Source: Marsupella aquatica (Eukaryota; Plantae; Marchantiophyta). From it: DNA of 64,000 nt. The notes below the pieces were generated by a model. The model made no database searches and was not told the DNA's origin. It was given only the letters and a program-made list of their open reading frames with translations. The translations under genes were made by a program, and so were the position numbers. The stretch is taken from assembly GCA_973895155.1 (NCBI GenBank), contig OZ316893.1, positions 248,001 through 312,000 on the forward strand. The letters run 5' to 3'. Of the stretch, positions 14,362-39,494 are shown one piece after another (the stretch's first letter is position 1; each line of letters begins with the position of its first letter).

Positions 14362-15282
14362 TGTGGTGCGTCCCATGGCTCCCTAAACCCAAGAAACCCC
14401 CCAGCTCAAGCCGATTCCCGCAGGTTTCGTGCTTGGCGAGGCCGTTTCCGCGGCTTAGCGGCATGGGACGCTGCTAACCTTCTACTACTACTATTAACAT
14501 TTTACACACATATACTGGACAGATCCTTCATCGGGTCATGAGATACGTAGCCGGCCTAATATAGGCCTTCCCCTGTCTTCCCCTGTCTTCCCCTCCGTCT
14601 TGTTAGGTATGTTTGGATTCCGCCGCCAGAATGATCCCCAATAGGCTTGGTTAAGCCGCTAAGACCTCTCTCAGCTCGACACATCCAACTCTCACTCCCT
14701 TGCTTACTTTCCTTCCTTCTGTTGATGTGGGCACTCTTCACACAAGTTAATGCGACACACAAATAGCAAAATGACTCATTCTGACTGAGTCATACCATGC
14801 ACTTGCCATACAAACAGTACATCTCATACACAAGTTCTGCGAACTAAGCCGTGAGGCCAACTCTATTCAGCTCTTAGGCATGAGGAAACATGAATATACA
14901 CAAGGGTCACTGTATGACTAACCGAGAGCTTCTCGTACTACTTGATCCCAGCCCGGCTGGTGCAAACTAAAAACTTGCTAAAGAAGAGGCCCTGAGCTCC
15001 CCGCTGCCCAGGTACTTATCCTGGTAGTGGATCCGCCATTCTTTGCATCGTAAGCCTAATCTACCTGATAGTAATCTACTTGCCCGAATCTACCTATGTA
15101 CAGCAAGGCAGGAGCACAAGTGTTGCTCCTACCAGTGGAACCGCAATCCCACTAAGCTAAGTGTCAGGGCCGCTCCTGGTTCTAATCCTAATCCTAAACG
15201 TGGAGATCCGCGCCCGCCCTGCCCACTCACGCCTCCTCCCTCCACGTCCGCCCTCCCTAAAAGGAACGGCGCCCTTGCACCG

Positions 15283-18200
15283 TCACGACACCGGTGGTGG
15301 ATCCTCAATGGACGTCCCCAACACTTCCTCCTCAGCCACTGCCGTTGGCCCGCCTACTGACAGATTACCTGCCCTTGACCGAGTCAACTCTCCCTCGGCC
15401 TGACTGGGTCCACCTTCGGCTTCAGCCTCGACACTGGCCTCGGCAATACCCACGGCTTCGGCCTCAGCCACTCCCACGGCTTCGGCTTCAGCCACTCCCT
15501 CGGCTTCGGCCTCCCCTTCCCCTAGGGTAGTTGGATCCTTAGCCGTGACCCTGTCTGGGGTCGGTGCTGGGTCTACCTCCTTGATCACCACGGCCTGTGA
15601 AGTTGTATTACTCCTTGACCCTGAAGGTTTCCGCTTCTTCTTCGTTGGTGGCTCGGCAGCTGGTCCCTTCCCCTTCCCACTTACTTCCGGCACTGGTGCA
15701 GGTGGCGCGGCTTGTCCTTCGGCAATTACCACCCCTGGTAACTGGTTTGTCCCAACGGGAGATGGACCTGCTGCAGCTAAGCATTTAAATACTGCGGCTT
15801 GTTTCTTCAGCCGCTCTGTTTGGTTGTCGGCCCGCCGCTGTAGGTTCTCCATCTTCCTCGTGATTTCCTCCAACTCCTCTTGGGTTTCATCCAGGTCCTT
15901 ACGTGCCCCCTCCAGCTCGTTTTTGGCCTCCTCCTGCTCCCTGTGGGCTTCCTCCAATTCCTTCTTCAAGGTAGCCCTCTCCTCCCGGGTTGCTCTTAGC
16001 TCCTTGTCGAGCTCTGCAATGATGACAGACTCCATCTGGTTCATCTTGGCGTAAGTCTGTTCGAGCATCTCGTCCTTCTCCCTTAGGTCGGCCTTGAAGC
16101 TGGCCGTCAGGGACGCAAGCTCCTGCTGCAGCGCCATAATCCCTTGATAGGATTTCCCTAACTCGGCCTCCTTCTGCTCAAGGGCTCCACGGATTTTCTC
16201 GAGCTCCCCTTTCAACGCCCATTCCTTTCTTTGGGTCTCCGCCATGGCCTGGCTGTTGGCTGTTATGTGGGCCTCCTCTGTATTCTTCAGCTCTTGCTTC
16301 CACTTCTCCCTCTCTTTGATCGTGTCGGCCAACTCTTCCTGCGTCTGAGTCAGTTTATCCTTGATATTCTGATTATCAGCCTGCGCGGTGTCCAACTGCC
16401 CCTGCATGATGTTCAGCTCATGTCGTTTAATCCGCAGTTCATCTTGGGCTTTCTTGGCCGCCCTTAGATCTTCAATCTCGGCTTCCATCCTCCTAAGCCG
16501 CCGAATGACCTCGTCCTTCTTGCTTCTCTCTAAAGCCACCGCTTCTTCTAATTGGTTCTTCTCCAACTGCTCCCTATGGAAAAAGGGTCCTACCTCCAAC
16601 TCCTCTCCAAAGATGCCGAGCGCAAGTTCCCCACACATCTCACCATACTCCATGGCTCTATTCTTAGCGTAGGTGGAGTAAGTAGAAGTGATCGGCATCG
16701 CCCATCGTGGACTCTGCTCCCAAGCCGTCCTGCGGATCTCTTCAATCGTGGCTAGAGGTTTGCTTCCTTTTTCGGCTAGCCGCCTGATGTCCTCCGGCCA
16801 ATCCCCTCCTGGTAAATCCTTTTCCTTAGCCAGGGCGGCCTCCTCCTCCTGCTTGATTCGCTCCTGAAATTCCTGCACCGTCTGTTTTATGCCGTCGAAG
16901 CTCGGGGGAGCAACATCTGGTGGGGGAGACTCAGGGCTACTCTGCTGGTTGGGGTCCCCTCGCACTACCCTTGGAAGTGTGGGGACAAACCGGCCACAGG
17001 TCCTTACTCCTGGAACGTGATGGTCCGACCCATAGCCGGAATTATCATGGCTGCAGTCCTCCACTGCCTCCTCTACCTCTTGGACGTCCGGCTTCTCCCT
17101 CTCCTCTTCGTCGGTAGGAGCTTCAGGCAATTCTGCCTCAGATTCGGAGCTTGAGGTTCCCACGTACATTCGAACACTTGGCTTGGATTCCGGCCTGATT
17201 CTCTCCTTGTCTCCAGCAAAGGGGTTTTCTCTTGTGAGCCGGTGTAGGCCTACCTCTGTAGTAGTGTCCTGCATTGTTGCCGTTGCCGTTGTTGTTGCCG
17301 ATGCCGATTTCTTTTCTTTCTCCAGTAGTTTCAGCAGACTCTGCATGCCTGGTTGCTGCATCGGCAAGTCCTCCTTCCTGGGCCTAAACACCTGCTCGAT
17401 CGTAGGACTAACAGGTGGTTGAGGCTTCTCAGCCAACGGCCTCGGCGTTGGAGCTTCCTCGGGTGCCCTTACCTGTAGGGGAAGTACCGGGGCAAAAGTC
17501 TGACCTCTGGCATACCGGCACAACAGCGGCATGTGATAGCCAAGCCGCAACACGCTCCCCATGCCGATTACCTGCTGCTCCTCCTTTAAGATCTTCTTCA
17601 ATTGGTTGAGGAGGTACCCGTTGTAGTCCCGGCTTGGGTCTGGCCTTTCTGCCAGATAGACCTGTGCCTTGCCGATCTCTACCCTCGGCAAGTTACAATG
17701 CATGGTCACCCGCAAGAAGTCGATCATCTCTCCTATGTGCGGGTTGGTGCAGGTGTTCCGGAAGAAGCCATTCTTCGTTGATGGCCCGGGGAACGACCGG
17801 AACTCCTTGTCAGGCAAGGTCTTCCTGGTATCAACTTTGGTCTTATTGCCTATCGGCAGGCCAAACACTTCGGCAATTACCTTGGGAGTAAGATAGAAAT
17901 CCTTCCCATATATCCTCGTGCAATTGGTCTCGGGTTCCCATGACCCCACAAATTCTAATAGGTCTGACTCCGGTACCTCCGGCTTCAGCCATGGTAATCT
18001 TACAAAGGCCTCCAAGCCGGATCCAGCCATGAAGCCTTGGTACTTCTTGGTCTGCATGGCCGTAAAGCATGCATCCTCCTCCCGTGCAAAATGTAGTTGC
18101 ACCTCCACCGGTAGGGTTGCCGCCCAGCCCTTCCAGGTGTCATCCCTGGTTGGAATGGCCTTGATGGGATCGACCTCCTCCTCTTCGGCTTCTCCCTGTC

Positions 18201-18648
18201 TCCTGCTCTGCTGCTCGGCTGGCTTCTTTGGTGCCGCCGACCTCGTTCTTTTTGCCGGGGTGGCTTCATCGTTGACGGCTCCCTTCCTCTTCATCTCTGC
18301 TGCCGTGGAGGTTTCTCCTAGCACCGTTGCCTGGGTCCACCTTTCCGTGCTACCCTTTAATTCCCGGTGTATGTCGTTGCAGTTCTTGATGGCCTCTCGG
18401 ATGCCGACGACGCTGTCTTTGCAAAATAGAAGATCGTCGAGTTGATTGGAAGTAGGCGTCCACAGGAACTCGTCCTTGATGAGTTCGCCTCCTAAGAAAG
18501 CCGTCTTCTGCAGCTCCCACAATCGAGCGAGCTCCTGCTGTTCTCGAGCTGCCCTTTCTGATTCCTCGTCCTCGTAAGTCTTGATGTACTCAGTTGCCCG
18601 TTCGAACAGGCATCCCCAGAAATGTGCCGCTTGATTGACGTTGCTCAT
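15283..18648 (-). CDS. 1121-aa LTR-encoded protein: conserved N-terminus, plant-transposon-protein/PMD-like domain, acidic linker, long coiled coil, basic NLS-like tail
   Basis: Uninterrupted ATG-to-stop ORF. Motif GLEAFVRLPW..EFVGSW..IYGKDFYLTPKVIAEVFGLP is shared with four other ORFs in the window. Heptad repeats and KKKRKP are present. Confidence 0.85.
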   Translation of the reverse strand: MSNVNQAAHFWGCLFERATEYIKTYEDEESERAAREQQELARLWELQKTAFLGGELIKDEFLWTPTSNQLDDLLFCKDSVVGIREAIKNCNDIHRELKGSTERWTQATVLGETSTAAEMKRKGAVNDEATPAKRTRSAAPKKPAEQQSRRQGEAEEEEVDPIKAIPTRDDTWKGWAATLPVEVQLHFAREEDACFTAMQTKKYQGFMAGSGLEAFVRLPWLKPEVPESDLLEFVGSWEPETNCTRIYGKDFYLTPKVIAEVFGLPIGNKTKVDTRKTLPDKEFRSFPGPSTKNGFFRNTCTNPHIGEMIDFLRVTMHCNLPRVEIGKAQVYLAERPDPSRDYNGYLLNQLKKILKEEQQVIGMGSVLRLGYHMPLLCRYARGQTFAPVLPLQVRAPEEAPTPRPLAEKPQPPVSPTIEQVFRPRKEDLPMQQPGMQSLLKLLEKEKKSASATTTATATMQDTTTEVGLHRLTRENPFAGDKERIRPESKPSVRMYVGTSSSESEAELPEAPTDEEEREKPDVQEVEEAVEDCSHDNSGYGSDHHVPGVRTCGRFVPTLPRVVRGDPNQQSSPESPPPDVAPPSFDGIKQTVQEFQERIKQEEEAALAKEKDLPGGDWPEDIRRLAEKGSKPLATIEEIRRTAWEQSPRWAMPITSTYSTYAKNRAMEYGEMCGELALGIFGEELEVGPFFHREQLEKNQLEEAVALERSKKDEVIRRLRRMEAEIEDLRAAKKAQDELRIKRHELNIMQGQLDTAQADNQNIKDKLTQTQEELADTIKEREKWKQELKNTEEAHITANSQAMAETQRKEWALKGELEKIRGALEQKEAELGKSYQGIMALQQELASLTASFKADLREKDEMLEQTYAKMNQMESVIIAELDKELRATREERATLKKELEEAHREQEEAKNELEGARKDLDETQEELEEITRKMENLQRRADNQTERLKKQAAVFKCLAAAGPSPVGTNQLPGVVIAEGQAAPPAPVPEVSGKGKGPAAEPPTKKKRKPSGSRSNTTSQAVVIKEVDPAPTPDRVTAKDPTTLGEGEAEAEGVAEAEAVGVAEAEAVGIAEASVEAEAEGGPSQAEGELTRSRAGNLSVGGPTAVAEEEVLGTSIEDPPPVS

Positions 18649-18921
18649 ACCCTCCTTAGGTTGATCGTCGGTATCTACTCTCTCCCCGAGTGCTTGCCTA
18701 AGCAGCTGACAGTAGTTGGCCTCCCGTAGTCGTCTGCCTAGTTCGTGCTCGCAAATGAGCCACTATCTCCTGCAAGCGCTCCTTACCCCTCTCCTTTGCC
18801 GGTCCTTCTTCCCGTTGATCCTTCCTAGCCGCCGACGCTTAACGCGCCCTAACCCTAATCGGGTTTTCACCCTTAGCCTTACCTCCGGCCTCGGCCCGGG
18901 TTCCATGGTTGCCCCTAATTG

Positions 18922-18927
18922 TTTATA
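18922..18927 (-). promoter_or_regulatory. TATA box of LTR copy 3
   Basis: TATAAA on the minus strand, about 95 bp from the LTR 5' end and about 275 bp upstream of the ORF ATG. Confidence 0.5.
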
Positions 18928-19026
18928 TTTTCCTTGTTTTGTCACTATACTAAGGTGTTCCTAGGGTGCCTTCCTGCTTTACCCACTTAACCGGCCGAGT
19001 GATTCCTGTCTAGGCATCACAATGGT

Positions 19027-19968
19027 CACCCGCAAGAAGTCGATCATCTCTCCTATGTGCGGGTTGGTGCAGGTGTTCCGGAAGAAGCCATTCTTCGTTG
19101 ATGGCCCGGGGAACGACCGGAACTCCTTGTCAGGCAAGATCTTCCTGGTATCAACTTTGGTCTTATTACCTATCAGCAAGCCAAACACTTCGGCAATCAC
19201 CTTGGGAGTAAGATAGAAATCCTTCCCATATATCCTCGTGGAATTGTTCTCGGGTTCCCATGACCCCACGAATTCTAATAGGTCTGAATCCGGTACCTCC
19301 GGCTTCAGCCATGGTAATCTTACAAAGGCCTCTAAACCGGATCCGGCCATGAAGCCTTGGTACTTCTTGGTCTGCATGGCCGTAAAGCATGCATCCTCCT
19401 CCCGTGCAAAATGTAGTTGCACCTCCGCTGGTAGGGTTGCCGCCCAGCCCTTCCAGGTGTCATCCCTGGTTGGAATGGCATTGATGGGATCGTCCTCCTC
19501 CTCTTCGGCTTCTCCCTGCCTCCTGCTCTGTTGCTCGGCTGGCTTCCTTGGTGCCGCCGACCTCGTTCCTTTTGCCGGGGTGGCTTCATCGTTGACGGCT
19601 CCCTTCCTCTTCATCTCTGCTGCCGTGGAGGTTTCTCCTAGCACTGTTGCCGGGGTCCACCTTTCCGTGCTACCCTTCAATTCCCAGTGTATGTCGTTGC
19701 AGTTCTTGATGGCCTCTCGAATGCCGATGATTCTGTCTTCACAAAACAGAAGATCATCGAGCTGATTGGAAGTAGGAGTCCACAAGAACTCGGCGTTGAT
19801 GATTTTGCCTCCTAAGAAAGCCATCTTCTGCAGCTCCCACAATCGAGCGAGCTCCTGTCGTTCTTGAGCTGCCCTTTCTGATTCTTCGTCCTCGTAAGTC
19901 TTGATGTACTCAGTTGCCCGTTCAAATAGATATCCCCAGAAATGTGCCGCTTGATTGACGTTGCTCAT
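19027..19968 (-). pseudogene. LTR-encoded protein copy 2, N-terminal part
   Basis: MSNVNQAAHFWG... is near-identical to the first about 315 aa of the 1121-aa ORF. Broken by the copy 3 insertion. Confidence 0.92.
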
Positions 19969-19992
19969 ACCCTCCTTGAGTCGATTGTTGGT

Positions 19993-22910
19993 TATAAATC
20001 AGGAAATTAAAAAGTACAAAATTTAAAAATTTCCAACTTTTAGTGGTTCACGACGTATACTTTGACCGGAAAAGACCATAACAAACTATTTTGCAGTATC
20101 GAATCCGGAAATATCCGAATAGCACCTTTTTTGTGGAACTCTTAAGTAACGACACCGTTGAGCCATGCGAGTAGGCGTGGGAGAATGAATATTAAAACCA
20201 TAAGTCTGACATCCGACCGGAGACCGAAAGTTGGCAATCGAGTTCGTAAGATCGCGCCAGACCGAGCATTCCTCACACAACCGAACTGCTGCAGAAATCT
20301 TTTGCAAGGAATCATAGGAGAGCTTAGAGCCGGACGAGGCTGCCATTTCGAGGCAATAGTTGAAAGGAAGTTGGTTACGGGGGAAGTGAGTGATCGTTCG
20401 ATTGAGAGGGGAAGTTTGTGACTTGATTGAGATTTCCGGATTTGGGAATTCCGGATTGGGAATTCCAGAATTCCCAAATTCCCAAATTTCGGATTTTAAT
20501 TTGGATTCTTTCTCTCCATCTCCTCATCATGGTAAAGAGAAAGGACCCGGATTTTTCCCCGGACAAATCCGGAATCCGGACGCTACCAAAGCGGACGACC
20601 AAGGAGCGGACAGTCGTTGTGAACGAAAAGCCATTGCGACCGGAAATTCCCACGGATTTGGCAAGGAAGGACCGCTTGCAAGGGAACCTTGAGACCATGG
20701 GTTGTGCGAAGTTGATGGAGTTGCCATAGGGATACCAGAGTGCAATATTCGTGAAGGAGGTCCGAAATCGTACGACCCTTGTTTTGGAATTTCCGGATTC
20801 TATTCGACCCAAACTGGAAAAGTGGACTGCGGCAGTTATCTCTTCACTCTTGGATGTGCCTTTGAAGGGAGAAGGCTTCCTGACCTCCAAGAATGCCTTT
20901 GCGGATAACTATTTTGATGGTGAAGTGGATCCGAAGGACGGTTGGAAGGTGTCCCAGTGCTGTAATGAGGAGTTTTACGACGTCCTGTCCTTTTTGCTTC
21001 CACTTCTTTCCCCTGCCAAGCCTCGAAGAGTTACAATCCGGATTGGAAATACTATTGCTGCTTCTTACATAGGGGAGAAGAAGATTTCCTGGGCCAAAGT
21101 TTTGGAGGAAGTCATAGCCAACCAGGTCCGGAATCTTCATTTGAAGACTCCCACATCCCTCTCTTGCTATCTAGCCAATCTTTACGCGATGGACCGGATT
21201 CTTACAGATGAAGAAGCGGAGGAGTATGAGAATCAAACCATGTTGGCCCAACTCGGAGATCCGGATCGACAGCCATCTGAAGGGACTGAGTCTGAAGAAG
21301 AACCGGTTGTGGAAGTGCGACCTTCCAGGATGCAGAAGAAATTTGTGCAGAGTGCGGAACCGGATCCTGTTGATGTTCCGGAACCTGTCCGGAGACCGGA
21401 AAGTAGAGGAAGTCTTCCGGGTGTGACCCCTAGTTCAAAGTGGACGGCATCAGCAGAGTTGGAGCATGTCCAGATTTTCTTGGAGAGTGCGGCCGGAAAG
21501 ACGAAACAACTTGAGGACCTTGTTGGGACGGTTGCTGAGATGCTCAACTACAGCCCGGTTGTCATCATTTCCACCCTGGACATGGTGATCAAGAGTCAGG
21601 CTAAGAAGCGGATCTGGGACTTGGAGGATCAGGCCTTCAAGGACAGACAGAAGATTGACTCTTTGGTGGACCAGTTGGATGCTGCACAGAAGAAGTTGGA
21701 GGAACACCTGAAGATCCGAAAACTACTGAATGCTGCAGTTACCAGTGTTCAAGAAGCACTTCATGTACCAGCCCTGAGCTTGTTGGAAGCTAACCTGATA
21801 GATAAGTATTTAGTGACAGCCAACCCAGGCAGCCTTGTTAAGGTTATTGAGTGCAGATGGAAAAAGTGATTTTGGATGCGAAGTCCATGTTGACTCCTTC
21901 CAGAATCTGGATTCCGGACTCCGGAACGTCTCCGGTGTTGCGAGAGGAAAATGAAGCAGGAGGCACTCCACCCGGATTTGAGAAGGTTGAGTTCCGTTTT
22001 CCGTCAATATCACCTCCGACTATCATTCCGACACGTGGAACACCTTTTGATTTGAAGGACTTGGAGACTACTGCAAGTTTAGTTACATCTCCTCCTCTGA
22101 AACCTGCTAGTCTAGTTGATCTTACACATGAGTCAGTTAGAGTAGATGTAGTTGATGATGCTCAGTAGATTAGTTATTTTAGTTAGCTAGTTAGCATTTT
22201 CGGATCCGACTAGGATCTAAATCCGAATTTAGTAGTAGAACCGGAAATCAAAATCCGGAGTTTGCCTTACATCCATTTCCGGATTTCCCTTGTTCTCATT
22301 TCCGGATTTTGATTGACAGTTACTTTTTCTTCCGTGAAAACCGGAAATGACACTTTGTGACAGTTCCAGTAGTCGAAATGGAATGTTTCCTTTCCCATGA
22401 GTAATTATCTAAATTTGATTGAGAAGATATCAATTTGACAATCTAGAAATCTTTGTGTGAGAAGATACCAATTCAAGCATTCTAGTACCGTCATCATTTG
22501 TTGACCAGAAAGAATTCTTGGTTTGATAGCTAGATCTCCATGTCAATTTCTAGTTAATGTTTGATGTCTATTCTAATTCGACCATGTTATGAGCTCTATT
22601 GCGTTCTGAATCTTAAAAATCCAGAATCCTGTTGATTTGCTGGGGATCGTCATTTTCCATCATCTTTTCTCATGAGTCAATTGATAAGACATTCTTACTA
22701 GTTCTTTTCCATGCCTTTCTTTAATTATTAGTTTTTGTGCATTGATTACTATCAATCCTCAGGAGAGAGAACTCCTTGGTGAGGTTATACCAAATCAACA
22801 TCTTATTTGCTCTTTTTAGTACCAATTCGCTTTTCATTCACTCTTACATGGAACGAATTCAGGTCTTTAGAGGTTAAAGTGTTCTTTAACAATCTGACCA
22901 CTCTACCACA
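19993..22910 (+). mobile_element. Third type of ORF-containing LTR-like segment (element D)
   Basis: Sharp junctions with copy 2 on the left and copia integrase on the right. Ends ...CTACCACA like family A (...GCACCACA) and contains a related ORF. Flanks do not form a TSD. Confidence 0.55.
20529..22168 (+). pseudogene. Distant homologue of the LTR-encoded protein
   Basis: MVKRKDP..LETMGCAKLMELP* (TAG where W is expected, 20727) continues in frame into 20751-21869 (KDGWKVSQC..DVLSFL..ISWAKVL, coiled coil). Frameshift into 21851-22168. Confidence 0.65.
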
Positions 22911-24334
22911 TGCTGCTTCCCAAGCACACAATGCTCACAGAATTTTAACTTACAAGATTGCAAATTAGAAAGTAATCCTTTCTTTTGAAGAATAACCAAA
23001 CTTTTTGCACTCATGTGGCCCAAACGGAAGTGCCAAAGCCGGACCGTCTTCTCATGAGATAAGGTTATATTGGCTTCATCACAGACTACACTGTCCTCCA
23101 AAATGTATAGATTGTTATGTCTCTTTCCCTTCAATACAACCTTAGTACCAGTTGAAATTTGAAGGACACCATTAGCAGAACTCCACTGATGGCCATTTGC
23201 TTCTAAAACTCCAAGTGAAATGAGATTTTTCATTATGCTGGGAATATGTCTCACATTCCTCAACGTTCTCACAGCACCATCAAACATCTGAAATCTAATA
23301 GATCCAAGTCCAACTACTTGACATGGGATTCCATTTCCCATCAACACTGACCCGTTGGAAACTGTGTAAGAACTGAAAAAATCTTTCCTAGAGCAAATGT
23401 GAAAAGTACATACACTATCTAGAATCCAGTCATCACTACCTGGATTTGACACTACGTTGAGAGCTTAACCTTGGCATCATAATATGTCATCATCATCGAG
23501 TAAATCTACCTCATGCGAGCTCGATGTCGCGTTACCAGATGCAATAGGGACCTTTACTCGACAATCCCTTTTCATGTGGCCAGGCTTGCCACAATTCCAA
23601 CATGCAAGAGGCTTTTTCTCTTGCGATTTCCCTCTGGATTTAGATCTCCCCCGTGATGTAGATCTAAACCTGTTCTGCCCATTCGTGCGCTGCGCTACTC
23701 TTCCCCTGTTCATGTTTAGCCCAGTGCCAGAAGAAGATGCTGTCTGTGATTGACCCAGCTTCTTCTGAGCATCATCAGACAGTAAAGAGCTCACCACCTC
23801 ATTACACAAAATAGACTTCAGATCTCTGTACAAGAGCACCTATTTCAAGCCCTGATATGACGACGGTAAGGAGCTTAGCAAAAGCAAGGCCTTATCCTCA
23901 TCTTCAACTCCTTTTCCCAGGTTTGACAGATCCACCACTAGACTGTCAAGCTCATCCAGGTGATCCTGCATCTTGCTCCCTTCCTTGAGCCTGAGGCTCA
24001 TCAAGAGAGACTTCTTGTACAGCCGGTCTGACGCATCTTCCCGGTAGTACTTCTCTCTAAGAGCTTTGAACAGTGACGCGCAATCCGCATAATCATCCAA
24101 CTGCTTGATGATGTGCAGCTTGAGATAAAGCATCACTGCATTGACAGCAATCACCTGCTCCTGTCTCCACTGCTTCTCTAAGATCTCCTCTCCATCATAC
24201 TGCTCTCGTGAAGATAGTAGATGAGCTAAGCCCATGGCCCGAAGGACACCCTTCACTTGCTTCTCCCATAGCAAGTAATCAGTACGACCATCGTACTTCT
24301 CTACCTCAAACTTCACTCCTCCAAATCTTACCAT
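22911..24334 (-). pseudogene. copia gag-pol fragment (gag, CCHC knuckle, aspartic protease, integrase HHCC)
   Basis: KFEVEKYDGRTDYLLW; CWNCGKPGHMKRDC; WILDSVCTFHIC; LWHFRLGHMS..CEHCVLGKQH. Stops at 23840 and 23477. Confidence 0.93.
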
Positions 24335-25993
24335 CTCTCTCTTCTTCCTAACTACCGACAGCTCTGGTAGTAACATAGCTTCCTCCACTGCACGCCGCAC
24401 CAGTGATCGTACTGGTGTTACTTGTTCCTCCTCAAACGGTAGTAGCTCCTCCTCAGACTCACCGTCTGACCGTCATGATCCTGAAGCTCCATCGACGCCA
24501 TTTTTTCCAGTATCCTTCGAGTCACTCATATGAAACAATCACAAAAAAATGTCTTTTTTTTAACTTCTCACAAAACTCAAAACTCAACACTGCCGCGTAG
24601 CCCATGAAGCTAGGAGTCCAATACTGAAAGTCGAAATCAAAATCAAAATTCGACGGAAAAGTTATTCAAATTTTGGTCGGGATGGGTAAAACCTTGGGAA
24701 ACTCCCCCGTTTGACCACCTCATGGAATAACCAAAATACCAAGTACAACCCGTTGTCGGAATCGCGATGTGATTGGTACGTCGCGTTGCTAACTCCAGTG
24801 GCAACGTCCTCGCCGAATAAGAACCAAAAAAATTACCATTTGACGGACAGAATCTTTGTCAGATGGCCAAAAAACAGCTCTCTGTTTTTTGGGAATATTC
24901 CCGCACAGTCTGACAAGTCTCACAGGGGGCCGTTCCCCCTGTCGGAGCGGTTAAAACGGAGGGCGGCAGGTCCCAGCACAAAAGGATAAGCAAGGGGAAA
25001 GAAAAAGGCTTAAAATAGGGCTTTAAAGGGGTGCATCAGCCCCTAAACAAAAATACCCCGTAAGGGGTCGGGAGTACACCCTTGCAAGTACCAGGGTACT
25101 GAAAAAAGGCCGGGCTGAGAATGCACACCGGTGTGCAGGGCAGGGCAAAGGGCGACCGGCAGGTCGCGAGGCAGGGCGGCGAAGGGCCGGCCGAAGGGAG
25201 GAAAGCACGAAAAAATTCCCCCCTATGTGTAAACACGAAAAAAATCCCCCCTATGTGTATACACACAAAAAATTGACTAAAGCAACCCCCAAAAAATAAT
25301 GCCAAATCGTTTGAAAAAAGCTGGATACACACCTAAATCGCCACTGTTTTAAGTGAGGAAAAAGAATGCCACTGACAGAAAAAGTTTACGAATTGCACTG
25401 GCATAGTCTGCAGCTCCAGCAGAGTGAAAAAATTCTGCCACAATGTATTCACTCCGTGTCAAGTGCCAATCCCGGGCTCAAAACGACCGCTTCACCGCGA
25501 TCAAACCGTTGAGCTGTAGCACTTCGCGTTTCTTCCACCAAGTCAGACGTCACGAAGAGAAACCCGATTCAGATGTGAACAAGCTCCATAGCTTGTGAAA
25601 AAACCTGAACGCCTCCGTCACTCGTCACGTCTCACTCGATAACAACTCGGCAGCAATCCAGCTACCGAAATGACCAGCTTGCTTCAACATTCAACTTGAG
25701 CTATAATGTGTGATCTCCCAAACACCACACAGCTCACACCATTGAAAAATGCAAACTCTGGTCTCTCCCCTGAAATACCGTCGAACACGAATAAACCCTG
25801 AACGATGCAAGCTTCAATTCCTCCGCACCATGGATACGATCAGCGAGTTCTAACCACCGTTAGAAAGCCCTCGCACTAACCTATCCGCTCAGCCACACAC
25901 ATTTGAGTTTCATGCAACGAAACTCCAAATGTACCACCGATAATTAACGTTGGAAAAACCTATTATGAAAAAACCTCATCACCTCCCAGGCAT

Positions 25994-26005
25994 GCTCTGA
26001 TACCA
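25994..26005 (-). promoter_or_regulatory. Primer binding site (initiator tRNA-Met)
   Basis: TGGTATCAGAGC on the minus strand, 2 nt after the LTR end. Confidence 0.92.
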
Positions 26006-26007
26006 CT

Positions 26008-26351
26008 TATTGAGCATAGATGACTTTCATAACGGCAAGCCCATGAACCATCTAATGCACAAGAGTCGACACAGAGAGATACGTGGTTCACCTCCACATG
26101 AGACTACGTCCACGGGAACACGCAAGAGCTTTACTGCACTCTAGGCCGACATGCCATACCAAGCATCCACAACGCAAGCTCTCCCTATCTCTCAACTAGC
26201 TCCGTAACAATGAGCCTAAGTTCCACCAGGGTCTGGCATCAGCCCTAGCTATATGCACAATAGCACTATCGCTAACATTAGCTAAGTCCTAACCCGAGTT
26301 AGACTAACTATGGTTAGCTCATGAGTCACAAGACTAGAACAATATCTAACA
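26008..26351 (-). repeat. copia 5' LTR (about 344 bp)
   Basis: Minus strand TGTTAG...CTCAATA (CA end mutated) adjacent to the PBS. Composition shifts to AT-rich beyond 26351. Confidence 0.75.
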
Positions 26352-26472: not shown

Positions 26473-27789
26473 CTAGATATGTTCTTTTACAAAGTGGTAT
26501 GCTCCACCAAGCTTTTCATTTATTGCTATCCCAACTACATACACTGGATCATTACTAGGAAATCTATAAGAAGTTCCATGTAAATCTTCACCTCGAATAA
26601 AAAAAATATCACCATCTAGAATTGGAATTTTTATCCCATATTCTAAAATCACTAAATGTCCACCTCTCTCTTCCATACAAGGATTAGAAGCCATGAACAT
26701 GGTGTACATGCTTCTATCATTATCAGTATGGACAGAGTTACAAAAATCTTTTGTGATAAACATAGGATATGCTGGAATAATATCCCTTATTAACTCTGGA
26801 TGATAAAAATATTGAAGTAAACATTCTGCCAACTTGCTAAATGGAAATTGTATATCTAAAAACTCTTGCACAATTGGCCAAAACTTATCACAAAAAAGTA
26901 CCAATATCATTTCAAACAAGATTCGATGAGAACATTGTTCATGTATGAGCTGAAGTTGATCCTTGTCATTACCTCTTATGTCTGATATTCTCATGTTATT
27001 TCTGTAAAAATTGACAAATTCTTCTCCTTTTCCTTCTCTCCAATTTACTAGGGGCCCTATAGCACGCATTGTTGCTTTCAATGCAGATCGTTTTTCTGAT
27101 CGTGTCACTGCCCATTGATGTTTCCATAGACTTTGTATGCAGGATCTTGCAAATTCTCGATTTGCTTCAGGTACCCCACCTTTCCATCTTCCACCAATAA
27201 TTGTATCACCGTCCATCCAGATTTCTACTTTTGAAGATGAGTCCATCATATAAAAATCATGTGGAATCTTCTTCCATGATATAGGTCTCTGAATGGAAGG
27301 GATTACTATACCTTCATCTATCAGATAAGTATCTATAAATGAGTCTAAAAAAGTTTGATCTTTCTTGATAAAAACTTTTTTAAGAATAAGTGGTTCTTCA
27401 TATAAGAGAAAATGATTTTCTTTTTCACTAAAAAACAAAGATGGACTACTACGAATTTTTCTCATTTGATAAGCTAAGTTCCCTTTGATAGAAGATAAAT
27501 TATATCTATAAGTTATCATATGAACAATTCTATTCCATTTTTTCAACTTGAAAAAATGTTTCCAGTTCTCATTTTTTTGAAAGAACCGAAATCCACATAA
27601 AAAAATTTGACGATGCCCTTCTATGACTCCTTGGGTCAAAATTTTCACACCATATTGAAACAAGTCATATTCACCAAGTAACCATTTTAGTAAAATTTCT
27701 AAATAATAATCTCCTCCATTATTTTTTGAAAGTATAACAACTTCCAAAAAATAATATGCTGCAACTTCATCAGGGTTTTTTTTCTGCAT
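26473..27789 (-). CDS. TET/JBP-like 2OG-Fe(II) dioxygenase domain protein (probably a terminal exon)
   Basis: FCNSVHTDND (HxD at 26722-26730), GGHLVILEYGIKIPILDGDIFFIRGEDLHGT (distal His at 26578-26580), upstream ATMRAIG motif. 438 open codons in very AT-rich DNA. Confidence 0.7.
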   Translation of the reverse strand: MQKKNPDEVAAYYFLEVVILSKNNGGDYYLEILLKWLLGEYDLFQYGVKILTQGVIEGHRQIFLCGFRFFQKNENWKHFFKLKKWNRIVHMITYRYNLSSIKGNLAYQMRKIRSSPSLFFSEKENHFLLYEEPLILKKVFIKKDQTFLDSFIDTYLIDEGIVIPSIQRPISWKKIPHDFYMMDSSSKVEIWMDGDTIIGGRWKGGVPEANREFARSCIQSLWKHQWAVTRSEKRSALKATMRAIGPLVNWREGKGEEFVNFYRNNMRISDIRGNDKDQLQLIHEQCSHRILFEMILVLFCDKFWPIVQEFLDIQFPFSKLAECLLQYFYHPELIRDIIPAYPMFITKDFCNSVHTDNDRSMYTMFMASNPCMEERGGHLVILEYGIKIPILDGDIFFIRGEDLHGTSYRFPSNDPVYVVGIAINEKLGGAYHFVKEHI

Positions 27790-30700
27790 ACATTACAAAA
27801 TAAAGTGGGTAAATTCATATGTAAAGGTTAATTACATTTCAATTCCCTAAAAATGACATTCAAATCTAAATAAAATATTTATACTTGATAAACTTCTCTA
27901 ATATTAACACAATTAGTGTATCAAGATTAGAAGTAACTATTATCTTCAAAAGAAATATAAATAATTTCACAGCTTCTTTATATTAATTAAATCATTGTTT
28001 AAAAATGTTCACTTATATCCTACCATGAAGTGATATATACCTGGCTTAGGTCCACTTCCTTTTCTAGTTTAAAATCAAGAACCAAACAAAAAATATAAAC
28101 AATATAATTTAAAACTAACAGTTCATAAAGAGGTATCCCCTTATTATTTTCTGGTTCATATGAACAGTTAGATCACAATAGAGTTCAAAACTACAGTTAC
28201 AAAAACTCATACCTACTATTAAAGGGAGATTACAAAATAATGCACCTAGTAAATTACCCAAAAACAATATCATATTAATTTATTTTCATCTTACATTCCA
28301 ATGCTCCCCTATTATTTATTAAAATTAGTACTAAGTGTTTAGATTGATGATAAGATTTGTATGGTGATAAACAATTGGTGGAAGACAACCAGTCAGAAAA
28401 TTAGATTGATCCATAGCTTCATGGATATGAAAGGAGTCAATTGTAGGAGAATTTAGAGTCCAGTGAATGAGTTTGGGGATTTTAGACTTGTAATTGGAGG
28501 TAGTCTATATAATAATTTGTCAAGAAATAATTGTTACACCTGCACAAGACTGGTAAGGCCAGGAACTCTGACCTTTTTTGAATTTTCCCTAATCCAGGTG
28601 GAAGCTAGAGATTATATGCGACAGAAGGGACAAGGGGAGGTAAAGGTCTAAAATACATTTTACTCATTCTGATTACAATTCAGAGATAAAGAAAGACCTT
28701 CCAAACTTACCAGCCTAGCTGCAATTTTATATCTAAAGGATTATCTAGAATACAACTCCAACATTTGGTTTATTAATAGGTACATTGAGTTACCAGCCTG
28801 ATGGCTATTCCTTAAGACCTGCCTGCATACAAAGTGGGATGCACAAGGCAAGGATGAATGACATTGGACATGGACCAGGCCAGATATGTATTGCCAAGTG
28901 GTGTTCCATGCTTGGACACTTAATCCATACAAGAGCAGTACATAAGGCCAGTCTTTGACTAAAGACTCCATTGCTCAGCAAATCAAACAGGCCTTCTGGG
29001 GCAAGAAGCTAGACATGTCCAAAGGGGGCAACAGAGACATGTTTGAGTCTTTTCATCAGCAGTTTGGCAAGCAAGAGAATGGCCTCCTGGCCAGTGGGCT
29101 ATGGTTTTCTAAAGGCTAATCAAGTAAGTTCAAAATAAACCAAATCAGACCAAGTTTCTGGCAAATGCCATCAACAAATAACTTAGAGAAAACTGCAACT
29201 AATAGTTCCCTAAAATTGCTTTCTAATTACAATTTATTTTCCAATTACAGTCCGGGTCTGAGATCACAAGTTCAAGTTTCGAATTCGTATTCATATCACT
29301 GGTCAATAATGGGGATACCCCTCAAGGGAAATATCGCCCCCCCAACCAGATCCACTTTCCTTGAAACTCTACTGATGAGATCAATCAAACCAGACCTGTG
29401 ATTAGAAATAAATGTGTTACCTACTCTTCAATTTAATTCAATTTCTAAGATAGAAGAAGGTCAAATGTACGAACCTCTTCTTGTCGGGATGATTCAATTC
29501 TCTTCCGCCTCCTGTAGACTCTCAAATACTCCATACTTCAACCTAACACAAGAATTATAGATTACATTTTGAAAACCTCACAAAATACAAGAGCTATAAA
29601 TAAAGTTTAACAAATAAAAACATTTGAAAGAATTATTTATAGTTCACAATCTCTAATCATCTAATACAAGTCCATAAAGAAAAGAATGCCAACAGGCAAG
29701 GTAAAGCAGAAATGGCCATTTCCCCTGAGAGTTCATAAGCTTCTCACTGTCAGCAACTCTTATTCTTATGTAGCCACTTGGCTAGGAAGTGTCGTGTGCT
29801 CTCTAATAAGTCCTTCTCTAAGAAATTTTTCTGAGTGATCCAGGCCCCCACCTACACTATTTCTTAGAATTTGTGCAATTGTATCGACATGGTAGCTCCA
29901 GCGACACAAGGAACTCGCTTTCAACATCGCCAGCATTGAAGATCTCCCAGTGTCGTGGCCATGTGAGTCTTTGGTGTCGTGGCATGTAGCCACGAAGGGC
30001 CAACCTATAAGTTCACTCTCGCTGTCAATTTTCGGTCCTGTATGTGATCGCAATTGATCCGTGGCTTAAAGATCTGCCGTTACTTGGATACGGGAAAATT
30101 AGACATAGAGTTATGAGTCCAGACTGATTTATGGTCTGGTCTCAGGCCCTGGTTTTTTAATAATTATAACCACTACGTATCTCCAATACTAGAAGGCTCA
30201 GCCAAATCTTGTTGTAGGAATGGCCCGCCCCTACACTGTAGACAACCAGCCGGCCAACTGGCTCGAAGGTCCCGAGGAGGGGAACACCTTTGATAGTAGT
30301 GGTTAGCCAGGATTTTAAGTGAGAAAGGATTCCGATTAGAACACACCACTGGAGCAAATCGAATCTGGTGAGGAAGGGTCAACACCACTGCGTTGGCTCG
30401 AAGCCCATGGAAAGGATTTGGGACCAATGAGTTATGCAGTAGTACGTTATTTACGAATTCGATTTGAAGTAATTCCTAGCCTGCTGCTGTGATGAGGGCT
30501 AGATAAACTAGAATCAAGGTCCTCGCTATTTTCCAGCATCCACCAAGTAAGGCCATCTCAAGGCTCATTATGACAACTCCCGTACTTTGCTGCCTGCGTC
30601 GCACTTCCACTGCCCTCCAATTTTGTTCCAACTGTGATGAGCTGTGAATTAACCCAACTTTTTGGTGGGATGTGTATTTAAAGGGTTGTCGTCCATAGTG

Positions 30701-35544: not shown

Positions 35545-36120
35545 CTAATAAAAGTACCCTCATTAATAAGAGTACCCTCATGGACAAGGCCCAACACAAG
35601 GATACCCTTAGGAGATAAGAGTACCCTCACTGATAAGGGTACCCTCATTATCAAAGTACCATTGTTGATAAGTGTACCCATTGATAAGACTACCCTCATT
35701 GATACTTAAGAGTACCCTCATACGCAAGGGTACCCTCAGAAGATAAGAGTACCCTCATTGATAAGGGTACCCTCATACGCAAGGGTACCCTCAGAAGATA
35801 AGAGTACCCTCATTGATAAGGGTACCCTCACTGATCAAAGTACCATTGTTGATAAGCGTACCCATTGATAAGAGTACCCTCGCTGATAAGAGTCCCTCGC
35901 TGATAAGAGTACCCTCGTTGATAAGAGTACCCTCAAGCACAAGGGTACCCTCAGGAGATAAGAGTACCCTCATTGATAAGGGTACCCTCATTGATAAGGG
36001 TACCCTCATTGATCTAATAAGTACCATCGTTGATAAATGTACCACTTTGATAAGAGTACCCTCACTGATAAGAGTACCCTCATGCACAAGGGTACCCTCA
36101 GGAGATAAAAGTACCCTCAT
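35545..36120. repeat. 18/19-bp minisatellite (GATAAG(A/G)GTACCCTCATT), about 30 units
   Basis: Directly visible head-to-tail repeats with recurring variants (caagggtaccctcaggagataag; atcaaagtaccattgttgataag). Confidence 0.95.
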
Positions 36121-36344
36121 TCACATGGGGAGCAATGAAAATAGGGATAATTGTAACCACGTCCAAAAGGTGAGATCTGTGATCATAGCCATTCAAAAAT
36201 ACTGTCCTTCAAAACCTTGAGGACTTTAGTTTAAGAACTTTTCTATATACATTTTCGTGCAGCCCAACGATTGCAATGCCCGGTCTTTGCGGTCTTTTTC
36301 GTGGTCTTTTTGCCACGAGTGCCCGAAAAAGACCGTCCCGCCAT

Positions 36345-37070: not shown

Positions 37071-37499
37071 GCCTCTCCATACGCTGCGGCCACTGTGGAC
37101 TGCCTCACCTCTGCCTCTCCTGGAACTTCACTCACGGGATTCACCTAGCCTCTTTCTGGCCAATTCCGTAACACTCAATCATTTGCCCGCCATCTAATTT
37201 TGCGACACCCGATTCCTGGCTTTACAGCAACCAGGACACGTGACCCTAGACCCTCCACCCATGTTCACTCCATGGGCACAGCACTCGCCTTAGAGAACAT
37301 GAACGCCCTCCACAAAACTACACTACCACCACTACTGTACTAGTCCCATCTTTGCCTTCTTCCACCTCCCCGCCGCACGACTATCGCGTAGAGCCTCTCC
37401 CTGTGCGGCTGGCCAGCACACACCCGCCTGAAGTTTAGGGTTTAGGGTTTAGGGATGCCCGAACCTGGAATTACCTCAAACTCCATTCATGGCAGAAAA

Positions 37500-37935
37500 T
37501 CAGGGCACCCCTCAGCCTTCCAGGCGGTTAGGGTTCTGTGTTTACGTGTTTAGGGGTTTTCCCTAAACCCTTACCTTCTTCGTCATGGCTCCCTGCCCCG
37601 GCCTCGCACACACAAAGGGATAACTCCAATCCTGCCATTCTCGAAATGTCAACTCATGATCAGAACCCCACATAGTGCAGCAATCTCATCACGAGCCCCA
37701 ATGGTATCAAACCAGGGCACCACTCAGCCTTCCCAGTTAGGGTTCTGTGTTTAGGGTTTAGGGGTTTTCCCTAAACCCTTCCCTTCTTCGTTGTGGCTCC
37801 CTGCCTCGGCCATGCAAAACACAAAGGGATGAACTCTGATCTTGCCATTCTCGAAACGTGAACTCATGATCACGACACCCCACATAGTGCGGCGATCCCA
37901 CCGCGAGCCCTGATGGTATCAAACCCGCGCACCAT
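37500..37935. repeat. About 215-bp tandem duplication with telomere-like motifs
   Basis: cagggcacc..ctcagccttcc..gttagggttctgtgttta..tttagggg.tttccctaaaccctt..aactcatgatca occurs twice. Confidence 0.85.
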
Positions 37936-38067
37936 TCACCCTGCTAGTATCCGTCCTCTGCCTCCCAAATCAACCCTAGTTCACCGTGGCTCCATCTCTC
38001 CCGGGGCCCTGCAAATGTTGTTGCCGTAAATCAATCAATCAAACAAGAACTATCAAGAAGTATAATC

Positions 38068-39494
38068 GTGGCATCCATTCGACAAAGTGAGATTCATGAC
38101 GCCATACAGATACATGATCGTGAGGTGATGAAACGTGGTGAGGATGAGGAGCCAGGTCAGTTATTGTTACACATCCTGGGAATCAATGAGTGGTTTTCCA
38201 TTTACCAGGCTGCTGGTTGCGTTGGTACCTCTGCTGCGCTTGAAAAACTTAATTCTTTTTCGACTTCGCTGAGTAGCTTTGAGAACATTGATGAGGACGA
38301 ACTGGAGCAATCTCGTATGACGAGCAGACGACTAGCTAGAATGCTTGCATACACCCCGATGAGTTGTAACGATATCCCTATCGCTCCTTCTATCTCGGAT
38401 GTCGCTACCAAACTTCGAGAGAACCCGCTTCTCAACACCGAATGGCTCTCAACAGAGGAACGCGCATTTGATGAGGCTATTGACGGAGCGCAATCCTCAC
38501 AGAGAGAGTTGGATGATTCCAAACAGGACGGCGAACCATTTGTGCCCAATAACCCTCCTCGATTTCTTGAGTGGGAAGCCTCTAAAGTTGACTGCTATAT
38601 GTGGCGAATCCCGAACATTAACAATCTTGCCCCCATGTCGATCGAGATGTGGAAGTCGTGGGCGTCTCTCTCTGACGAAGACATCAAGACCTGTCGGAAC
38701 AACGCTCTTAAAGGTTTTCCATGGATCGAAACTACGCCGCTCTTTGTGACTCGATGGCCCATGACCGTATGTGGGGCCCCTAAGTACAAGTGCAGCGTCG
38801 AAGCTGGAGTGAAGATCAGGGGACACTTCAATACTAATTCTTCTCGGTCTCCACATGAACACAAGACTAAATTCTGGAACTTGCATCGGCCATTCCTTCG
38901 ATGCTCCTGTAATTCCACTACGAAGGGAGGATGTACCGGCCAAATCGTCTGGTTTGATCACGCTATTTGGTATATGGCTAACCACCTTGATTTGTTTTTT
39001 AACGCTTCGTCTGCGCAAGGAAGATTGGTTCTCATGATGAGTTTTTTGGGTGGTGACGCTCGTCGTACTAGTTTGGATCAAGTCGCGTTCCTCTTCGTAC
39101 GACAGTTCATCTTAGAAGCCGCTGGAGAACGGCTGCGGGACCCGAATGCACATTCAACTCCTCTCGGCATACGGGGATGCCAAGAGGGGCACGCATCATT
39201 GAAACATTGATCAAGCCTGGGGAATTCTCTGAACAAACCTCTGTGACAAAAAAGAAGTGGAATCTTAATAACTTCACGTCAGCAGATTCAGCCAAGCGCA
39301 AAGGCATCTACGTTAACCAAACACCCCAGCGCGGACGTGGTCGCGGTAACTACTCATGGCGACCCAACACTCCAAACGGCACGGCCGGGACATTTAGCCG
39401 GTCTTTGGGACGCCCGACATCATCAGGCTCCCCTGGATCGGCAAATGGACAGTCACCTCTTCCACGACGCAACATCCACTTCAATGATGTGTGA
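38068..39494 (+). CDS. Hypothetical protein with a GRF-type zinc-finger-like motif (Helitron cargo; frameshift near 39180)
   Basis: 380-codon open frame with C..C...NLHRPFLRCSC...GGC..IVWFD, resembling the zf-GRF NxGRxFxxC..C.FFxWxD pattern. GTG start in the ORF track; continues in 39177-39494. Confidence 0.45.

What the first reader, a model, noticed from the sequence alone, without database searches (positions are those of the whole stretch)
26473..27789. TET/JBP-like dioxygenase in plant transposon-rich DNA
Seen: an open 438-codon frame in strongly AT-rich DNA, where stops would accumulate quickly. It has HxD...GGxLV..YGIxI....GDIFF..GEDLHGT, the double-stranded beta-helix signature, with spacing typical of TET/JBP-type nucleic-acid base oxidases rather than plant metabolic 2OGDs. 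Known: land plants demethylate through ROS1/DME glycosylases and canonical TETs are not recognised in them, while fungal TET/JBP genes travel with DNA transposons (KDZ, Plavaka). Inference: a transposon-borne or horizontally acquired 5mC/T-modifying enzyme, possibly an anti-silencing factor. Caveat: I do not see the usual 2OG-binding Arg on the last strand.
Basis: partly seen in the sequence, partly recalled or inferred. Interest (0 to 1): 0.8.

Follow-up and report, generated by a model that had tools for sequence, protein, structure and literature searches.

The report
Plant TET-like enzyme missing cofactor arginine
A transposon-filled stretch of what is likely a land-plant genome carries an intact, probably long-conserved gene whose predicted shape best matches the enzymes that chemically alter methylated DNA bases, a class plants are said to lack, and its whole family has lost the arginine such enzymes normally use to hold their co-substrate, so it likely works by non-standard chemistry.

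Summary
The 438-codon minus-strand ORF is real. Its predicted catalytic domain matches TET/JBP structures best (CMD1 Z 17.3, TET2 16.1, NgTET1 15.2; best prolyl hydroxylase 13.6). The only solved-structure hit of the family profile is CMD1 (E 0.007). It also lacks several CMD1 vitamin-C and base contacts, so I file it as neither canonical TET nor CMD1. It is not a contaminant: runs of two studies hold it as one low-depth contig that runs into a plant copia LTR. Silent CpGs are purged (1 vs 18.6 expected) while CGA codons of conserved arginines survive, which points to long purifying selection in methylated DNA. AT richness is therefore no sign of recent transfer. No transposase or terminal repeats flank it, but diverged paralogues exist in the same runs. 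Host lineage, expression and activity are untested. Verdict: new variant of a known kind; interest 0.68.

The parts
26473..27789 (-). 438-aa ORF (P0001), TET/JBP-fold Fe(II) dioxygenase-like protein, no intron needed within the frame
   Evidence: full-length homologue P0002 52% identical over 98%
27430..27789 (-). N-terminal all-helical region (about residues 1-120), conserved in close relatives, no known family
   Evidence: DSSP of model; alignment A7; no significant PDB or Pfam match
26476..27402 (-). catalytic region, residues 130-438, double-stranded beta-helix with TET-type extensions
   Evidence: model pLDDT 78.8, pTM 0.79; aligns to CMD1 115-432 over 255 residues, Z 17.3, rmsd 3.8
27100..27102 (-). 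Arg230 (CGA codon), candidate counterpart of CMD1 Arg244 / TET2 Arg1261 (inferred, not superposed)
   Evidence: Arg in 10 of 12 family rows that cover it and in P0029; codon
26716..26730 (-). His354-x-Asp356-x-Asp358: two iron ligands plus an invariant Asp, candidate base contact
   Evidence: 22 of 22 rows for each residue; aligns to CMD1 HLDTDD, His345/Asp347
26563..26580 (-). His404-Gly-Thr406-x-x-Arg409: third iron ligand, Thr shared with CMD1 Thr399, and a mostly conserved Arg five residues after the His
   Evidence: His 18 of 18, Thr 15 of 18, Arg/Lys 13 of 17; HGT aligns with CMD1
26518..26544 (-). last strand Val416...Ala422-x-Asn424: Val in place of the 2OG Arg, Ala in place of the stacking aromatic, conserved Asn
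   Evidence: position 416 is Val/Ala/Thr in 17 of 17; 422 never aromatic in 18; 424 Asn in 15 of 18; register from hhalign with P0029
26352..26472 (-). 121-bp AT-rich 3' flank, AATAAA directly after the stop, cut by the LTR insertion
26010..26351 (-). 5' LTR of a very high-copy Ty1/copia element, a separate insertion downstream of the gene; primer site at 25994-26005; gag-pol fragment at 22889-24469, truncated
27790..29600 (.). low-copy AT-rich, strongly CpG-depleted upstream block (GC 0.34, CpG o/e 0.15) on the same contig as the gene

Best explanation
This is an intact nuclear gene, likely of a land plant, for a protein predicted to have the TET/JBP fold, which likely binds Fe(II) and likely attacks the 5-methyl group of methylcytosine in DNA, using a co-substrate that would be held without the canonical arginine. 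Shown: the open frame, the family-wide iron triad, the family-wide loss of the Arg-x-Ser site, the genomic linkage, and the CpG pattern. Predicted: the fold. Inferred: (1) the gene has been under purifying selection while sitting in methylated DNA; (2) Fe(II) bound by His354/Asp356/His404 activates O2; (3) the flipped base is read by Arg230, Asp358 and Asn424; (4) the co-substrate is either 2-oxoglutarate anchored by a substitute basic residue (Arg409 is the candidate) or a non-2OG molecule such as ascorbate, as in CMD1. I cannot separate these two and rate them about even. The family probably began as mobile-element cargo, as algal and fungal TETs did, and this copy looks like a retained single-locus survivor. 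Its likely effect is to lower or rewrite 5mC in some cell type or stage.
For: Fold: top three of 48,161 chains are CMD1 (Z 17.3, rmsd 3.8, 255 aligned), TET2 (16.1, 4.1, 251) and NgTET1 (15.2, 3.7, 206); with the full-length model the top four are all TET/JBP; in both Foldseek PDB searches every printed row down to rank 25 is a TET/JBP structure; top named viral matches are JBP1/TET domains. ESM Atlas: 26 of 30 hits are Tet_JBP clusters, scores 0.95-0.97 (its recognition value 1631 was below the 2300 mark, so weak alone). Profile A5 finds only CMD1 in the PDB, E 0.0074. Triad invariant across members only 23-27% identical to P0001. Selection: CpG at codon positions 2-3 and 3-1 is 1 observed vs 18.6 expected (Poisson 1.7e-7; synonymous shuffle 4 of 5000), while positions 1-2 keep 9 vs 12.0; five CGA codons, one step from a stop, encode Arg211, 230, 234, 289, 399. 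Precedent: CMD1 keeps the triad, cannot use 2OG for lack of a basic residue at that site, and uses vitamin C (PMC7854593).
Against: No activity data and no expression data. The stacking aromatic of TET2/NgTET1/CMD1 is absent (Ala/Thr/Val). CMD1 residues essential for vitamin C or base binding are not kept: Trp358 aligns with Ala367, Arg418 with Asn424, and the ungapped partner of Asp350 is the variable Arg359. Pfam cut-offs are not reached (PF20515 12.7 bits vs 27). A prolyl hydroxylase scores Z 13.6, above CcTet at 13.1, for the domain model. Identity to solved TETs is 10-13%. 24 of the 27 family hits are 59-319 aa fragments. The CpG signal records past selection and cannot show that the gene is still used. 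Host taxa of the relatives are unknown.
Confidence: 0.5

Rival explanations
1. A catalytically dead or slow TET derivative that keeps metal for structure and acts as a reader or shield of methylated DNA.
For: Both the 2OG Arg-x-Ser and the stacking aromatic are lost in all members that cover the site. A basic segment (residues 225-272, 10 Lys/Arg) is conserved and could bind DNA.
Against: All three metal ligands are invariant across four deep subfamilies; pseudo-enzymes usually lose these first (general knowledge). Pocket-side Thr346 and Thr406 match CMD1's essential Thr337 and Thr399.
Confidence: 0.17
2. Cargo of a mobile element (DNA transposon, Helitron or endogenous virus) whose ends were lost here; the protein served the element as an anti-silencing factor and this copy is a still-open relic with no host role.
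For: Diverged paralogue pieces in the same runs match the conserved motif at 27014-27089 (3 contigs, summed depth 299 vs 33 for the gene in X2; depth is only a rough guide) and at 26486-26546 and 26772/26991. Many relatives are fragments, some sharing a contig length. No intron in the frame. 10 of 11 Chlamydomonas TETs are transposon cargo (10.64898/2026.10.09.758095); CMD1 sits in a transposon without a transposase (10.1101/2022.06.16.496473).
Against: The gene and 1.8 kb upstream form one low-depth contig in both even-depth runs. No transposase or terminal repeats. Silent CpG loss is far deeper than in neighbouring TE frames (o/e 0.05 vs 0.42-0.92), which fits a long-resident locus. This rival concerns origin and present role; it is compatible with the same chemistry.
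Confidence: 0.2
3. A TET-fold enzyme acting on something other than DNA 5mC: thymine, 6mA, RNA, or a non-nucleic-acid substrate.
For: Base-contact residues differ from all solved TETs. CcTet acts on 6mA (PMC12730594) and NgTET1 on thymine (PMC12344493). PHD-type folds score Z 12-13.6.
Against: Invariant Asp358 near the site where an Asp reads cytosine N4 in CMD1; longest structural overlaps (about 250 residues) are with DNA 5mC enzymes, against about 180 for PHDs.
Confidence: 0.1
4. Contaminant or mis-join (fungal, protist or viral DNA in the assembly).
For: AT-rich island in a 45-55% GC window; the only named relative is from an amoebozoan, Planoprotostelium fungivorum. The contigs reach only 28-29 bases into the LTR, short of the tool's 31-base bridging rule.
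Against: Runs of two studies hold the same block with 0 and 2 differences, both starting inside the same LTR end; depth 12.2 matches neighbouring unique contigs (10.7-13.6) in X1; exact pieces tile on to the repeats at the right. No relative found in viral, metagenome, prokaryote or phage scans (these find close relatives only).
Confidence: 0.03

Closest known systems
CMD1 (5-methylcytosine-modifying enzyme 1) of Chlamydomonas reinhardtii, PDB 7CY4-7CY8
   Same: Best VIA structural match and only PDB profile hit; HxDxD, GGEF-like turn and HGT motifs align; Thr337/Thr399 counterparts kept; no usable distal Arg for 2OG; green-lineage host.
   Different: CMD1 still has Arg410 in sequence and blocks 2OG with Trp358; here the Arg itself is gone and Trp358 aligns with Ala. 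Phe416 and Arg418 align with Ala and Asn. About 10% identity. Own helical N-terminal region. No transposon ends seen.
Canonical TET/JBP 2OG dioxygenases: human TET2, Naegleria NgTET1, Coprinopsis CcTet (Pfam PF12851, PF20515)
   Same: Extended DSBH fold, HxD...H triad.
   Different: Lacks the strictly conserved C5-carboxylate Arg (TET2 Arg1896, NgTET1 Arg289; PMC7854593) and the stacking aromatic; below Pfam cut-offs.
Planoprotostelium fungivorum PROFUN_13478 (PRP78645.1; P0029)
   Same: Only named sequence relative (E 2.8e-4 in 1.84 billion; hhalign probability 97.8, 212 columns); shares HxDxD, HGTS and the Arg230 segment.
   Different: Keeps Arg-Tyr-Ser on the last strand; long branch in the tree; uncharacterised.
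Transposon- and virus-borne TET/JBP genes (fungal PU/AG/PE types; Chlamydomonas DNA-1_cRei, Helitrons, punuivirus; Polinton-like viruses)
   Same: Patchy multi-copy family with many fragments; plausible common mode of origin.
   Different: No element boundaries, transposase or viral genes found near this copy.

Membership tests
TET/JBP 2OG-Fe(II) dioxygenases | DSBH fold closest to TET/JBP structures | tested here: met
   (predicted models)
TET/JBP 2OG-Fe(II) dioxygenases | HxD/E...H iron triad | tested here: met
   His354, Asp356 22 of 22; His404 18 of 18
TET/JBP 2OG-Fe(II) dioxygenases | Pfam PF12851 or PF20515 at gathering score | tested here: not met
   PF20515 12.7 bits vs 27; best among 28 relatives PF12851 20.6 vs 34.9 and PF20515 19.1 vs 27
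TET/JBP 2OG-Fe(II) dioxygenases | Arg on the last strand binding the 2OG C5 carboxylate | tested here: not met
   Val416; Val/Ala/Thr in 17 of 17
TET/JBP 2OG-Fe(II) dioxygenases | Proximal Arg (TET2 Arg1261, NgTET1 Arg224, CMD1 Arg244) | tested here: inconclusive
   Arg230 in 10 of 12; no residue-level superposition available; region has modest pLDDT
TET/JBP 2OG-Fe(II) dioxygenases | Base pocket: Asp/Asn after HxD, stacking Phe/Tyr, His/Arg two further on | tested here: not met
   Aromatic absent (Ala422); Asn424 in place of His/Arg; invariant Asp358 is one residue off the CMD1 Asp350 register
TET/JBP 2OG-Fe(II) dioxygenases | Oxidation of 5mC or T in nucleic acid | not testable with these tools
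   needs an assay
CMD1 subfamily (vitamin C-dependent) | Nearest solved relative by profile and structure | tested here: met
   E 0.0074; Z 17.3 vs 16.1 for TET2; Foldseek ranks CcTet first
CMD1 subfamily (vitamin C-dependent) | Essential residues Thr337, Trp358, Thr399, Asp350, Phe416, Arg418 | tested here: not met
   Thr346 and Thr406 kept; Trp, Phe, Arg replaced by Ala367, Ala422, Asn424 by sequence register
Transposon-borne TET (KDZ, Plavaka, Helitron, DNA-1_cRei type) | Transposase or terminal repeats flanking the gene | tested here: inconclusive
   none found, but the left flank is replaced by a truncated copia, so ends may be lost
Transposon-borne TET (KDZ, Plavaka, Helitron, DNA-1_cRei type) | Multiple near-identical copies with the same flanks | tested here: not met
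   one low-depth contig in X1 and X2; only diverged paralogue pieces at about 80%
Non-nucleic-acid 2OGDs (P4H/PHD, PhyH, plant DOXC) | Best profile or structural match | tested here: not met
   rank below CMD1, TET2, NgTET1, below all listed TET/JBP rows

The most novel reading that the evidence does not exclude
A land-plant lineage has domesticated an undescribed, deeply diverged TET/JBP-fold family that has abandoned 2-oxoglutarate and writes a new DNA base on 5-methylcytosine with another co-substrate, giving plants a ROS1/DME-independent route to rewrite methylation.
Probability: 0.2. Interest if true: 0.92.

Novelty: new variant of a known kind. Interest (0 to 1): 0.68.

Why it matters
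[quoted passage not shown] An intact, intron-free 438-aa candidate with signs of selection can be expressed and assayed directly. The one characterised TET relative that cannot use 2OG, CMD1, turned out to make a new base, so a family that has lost the 2OG Arg outright is a good place to look for new DNA chemistry. Limits: the host lineage is unidentified, and a patchy family would not explain oxidised bases in seed plants.

Tried and rejected
No genome is held for the window, so copy number, synteny and host genes could not be searched. No RNA holder was listed; this says nothing on expression. Single-sequence PDB search: 0 hits. Repeat homologue searches with A1 and A3 added only P0035. Locus scans found no relative: viral contigs with P0001 and P0017, metagenomes with A1 and A6, prokaryote genomes with A1; these reach close relatives only, so no flanking DNA of any homologue was seen. 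Phage tblastn best E 2; PHROGs best E 0.007, nothing convincing. N-terminal region: no significant PDB or Pfam match; it was not folded alone. 125 further window frames gave no transposase or host-gene domain, only two weak hits below cut-off. No tRNA or Rfam hit. Uneven depth in X3 and X4 was rejected as a copy-number signal: several loose ends there begin or end at GATC, as ligation libraries do (inference). Run X5 lacks the locus but matches even the flanks at only 80-90%, so it is no evidence of presence/absence. AT richness as a sign of recent horizontal transfer was rejected. Literature: searches (TET/JBP with land plants, bryophyte, liverwort) gave 0 papers; the listings of 29, 42, 71, 90, 99, 100 and 112 showed no title or abstract on a land-plant TET. 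The Iyer 2009, 2013 and 2014 papers are not held, so their species lists and supplements, which could already include such proteins, were not seen. Earlier scan notes: no look-alike by sequence for P0001, P0010 or the neighbouring TE protein.

Full report
OBSERVATION. The frame is on the minus strand, ATG 27789 to TAG 26473, 438 aa (P0001). At its composition (GC 0.32) about 1e-13 such frames are expected in the window, and 500 shuffles of the block gave at most 205 codons. One full-length homologue, P0002 (479 aa, 52% identical over 98% of the query), is an unnamed Logan protein. P0002 and P0013 have a Met at the same place as P0001, which supports the start; but the ATG follows an in-frame stop by two codons and lies in an acceptor-like stretch, so an upstream exon is not excluded.

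FAMILY. A phmmer search of 1.84 billion representatives gave 28 proteins at E up to 0.001. I looked up all 28: 22 are Logan only, 3 JGI/IMG 'hypothetical', 1 ENA, 1 NCBI/ENA unnamed, and 1 is named, Planoprotostelium fungivorum PROFUN_13478 (P0029). Their hosts are therefore unknown. Of the 27 unnamed ones 3 are near full length (P0010, P0017, P0028; 23-27% identical to P0001) and 24 are fragments of 59-319 aa. Some fragments share a contig length (three at 3229, two at 2891) and cover successive parts of the protein, which suggests broken or intron-split genes (inference). A tree of 22 catalytic regions shows four subfamilies; P0001 groups with P0002-P0004 and P0008 (99/99) and P0029 is a long branch (no reference TETs were in it, so it says nothing on origin).

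FOLD. Pfam gives only PF20515 'Tet-like' at E 0.12, under cut-off. The ESM Atlas returns Tet_JBP clusters for 26 of 30 hits at 0.95-0.97, with a recognition value below its reliability mark. The family profile hits CMD1 in the PDB at E 0.13 (A3, best of 11 rows) and, for the catalytic part, CMD1 alone at E 0.0074 (A5). AlphaFold2 models reached pLDDT 72.4 (whole) and 78.8 with pTM 0.79 (residues 130-438). Against 48,161 chains the whole model ranks CMD1 (Z 15.6), TET2 (14.9), NgTET1 (12.8), CcTet (12.3), then AlkB (11.0). The domain model ranks CMD1 (17.3, rmsd 3.8, 255 aligned), TET2 (16.1, 4.1, 251), NgTET1 (15.2, 3.7, 206), a Trichoplax prolyl hydroxylase (13.6, 4.1, 183) and CcTet (13.1, 4.1, 235). 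Foldseek puts CcTet first (E about 1e-8), then NgTET1, CMD1 and TET2, ahead of FTO and metabolic enzymes; in the viral library the best named matches are JBP1/TET domains.

ACTIVE SITE. I aligned 25 family rows plus P0029, leaving out four N-terminal-only fragments, P0015 and five near-duplicates. His354, Asp356 and Asp358 are present in 22 of 22 rows that cover them, His404 in 18 of 18 (one from a truncated row). hhalign places the Arg-Tyr-Ser of P0029 on Val416-Tyr-Val418; position 416 is Val, Ala or Thr in 17 of 17, and P0001 has no basic residue from 410 to 425. The CMD1 structure paper (PMC7854593; passages and the active-site section read) calls the matching Arg of TET2 and NgTET1 strictly conserved for 2OG binding, and explains that CMD1 cannot use 2OG because its Arg410 points away and Trp358 fills the site. 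By sequence register P0001 shares CMD1's essential Thr337 (Thr346; Thr/Ser 20 of 21) and Thr399 (Thr406; 15 of 18), but has Ala367 for Trp358, Ala422 for the stacking Phe416 (whose loss cut CMD1 activity eightfold) and Asn424 (15 of 18) for Arg418. Asp358 is invariant but one residue before CMD1's Asp350. Arg230 (10 of 12) may be the proximal Arg. The protein is thus neither a canonical 2OG TET nor a CMD1 orthologue by defining residues, yet it looks like a working iron enzyme of that fold.

GENOMIC SETTING. Four runs from two studies hold 92-99% of the sampled words. In X1 one contig covers 26324-29989 with no difference, depth 12.2, like neighbouring unique contigs (10.7-13.6); in X2 one contig covers 26323-29833 with one substitution and one gap, the gap outside the ORF. 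Both start 28-29 bases inside the end of a very high-copy LTR (26010-26351), just under the tool's 31-base bridging rule but what a graph branch into a repeat would give (inference). X1 may be the source of the window; X2 belongs to another study. The LTR belongs to a truncated copia (gag, zinc knuckle, protease-like and pre-integrase domains) with a primer site at 25994-26005 and ends 121 bp past the stop. That primer site and tandem TTTAGGG repeats are plant-type (recalled). No transposase domain or terminal inverted repeat was found. At 80% likeness, short pieces of diverged paralogues land on the best-conserved motifs, for example 27014-27089 with 3 contigs and summed depth 299 against 33 in X2, and the loose end reads on in frame like the family (my hand translation). 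So the genome has further family members, some perhaps multi-copy, but this locus is low-copy.

SELECTION. The block has CpG o/e 0.31 (ORF) and 0.15 (upstream) against 0.52-0.87 in neighbouring repeats. Within the ORF, CpGs at codon positions 2-3 and 3-1 number 1 against 18.6 expected (Poisson 1.7e-7; 4 of 5000 synonymous shuffles as low), whereas Arg CGN codons number 9 against 12.0 and GpC is little changed. The six other window frames tested show o/e 0.42-0.92 at those positions, five of them also depleted to some degree. Five CGA codons survive, at Arg211, 230, 234, 289 and 399, several of them conserved in the family. This is the pattern expected from long residence in CpG-methylated DNA with selection on the protein. 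It explains the AT richness without recent transfer. It does not show present expression, and ancient transfer remains possible.

MECHANISM AND ODDS. Most likely (0.5) an Fe(II) enzyme acting on the 5-methyl group of DNA 5mC with a non-canonically held co-substrate, 2OG through a substitute basic residue or an ascorbate-like molecule, about evenly. Rivals: relic mobile-element cargo without host role (0.2), non-catalytic reader (0.17), another substrate (0.1), contaminant (0.03). The TET/JBP-fold assignment alone I put near 0.93 and host-genome residence near 0.95.

LITERATURE. [quoted passage not shown] TET genes are cargo of fungal DNA transposons (PMC12730594, passages and section 3.4), of Chlamydomonas transposons and an endogenous giant virus (10.1101/2022.06.16.496473 passages; 10.64898/2026.10.09.758095 passages and one section) and of Polinton-like viruses (10.64898/2026.06.19.733378 passages). 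Ten searches listed no description of this family; the Iyer papers and their supplements were not available. Earlier unchecked notes of this scan describe spliced, zinc-finger CMD1-like genes in Sphagnum; they share no look-alike words with P0001, so this seems a separate family, and those notes are leads, not support.

VERDICT. Observation confirmed, interpretation partly supported. New variant of a known kind: a TET/JBP-fold family with an invariant iron triad and no 2OG arginine, represented here by an intact gene under apparent selection in a probable land-plant genome. Interest 0.68, limited by the unknown host and the lack of expression or activity data.

Noticed in passing
window 8500-20000: Three to four tandem, 84-94% identical copies of a 2.5-3.4 kb unit carrying a long coiled-coil ORF (up to 1159 codons at 15283-18762, minus), related in style to ORFs at 52205-54511 and 59499-62117; no informative Pfam domain; probably retroelement accessory genes.
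   Followed up: partly
window 22889-26351: Copia element with gag and start of pol broken by stops and truncated near 22800; only one LTR is left in the window.
   Followed up: partly
window 37948-39210: 420-codon plus-strand ORF with Cys/His clusters (CSCNS...C, HEH), no Pfam match and no silent CpG loss (51 vs 55.4), so probably a young element.
   Followed up: no
window 35546-36121: 18-bp unit tandem array (28 copies) built on GGTACC-like palindromes.
   Followed up: no
window 2102-2115, 37434-37454, 37750-37763, 47238-47251: Short interstitial TTTAGGG telomere-type repeats inside dispersed repeats.
   Followed up: partly
window 28744-29119: Decayed, nearly CpG-free coding-like fragments on the plus strand upstream of the gene; no Pfam match.
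   Followed up: partly
protein P0029 (PRP78645.1): Unannotated Planoprotostelium fungivorum protein with HxDxD, HGT and an intact Arg-x-Ser: a likely TET/JBP-type enzyme below Pfam cut-off.
   Followed up: partly
proteins P0017, P0018, P0019, P0030: One subfamily has HxDxxD spacing instead of HxDxD, while still lacking the distal Arg in the three members that cover that site.
   Followed up: partly
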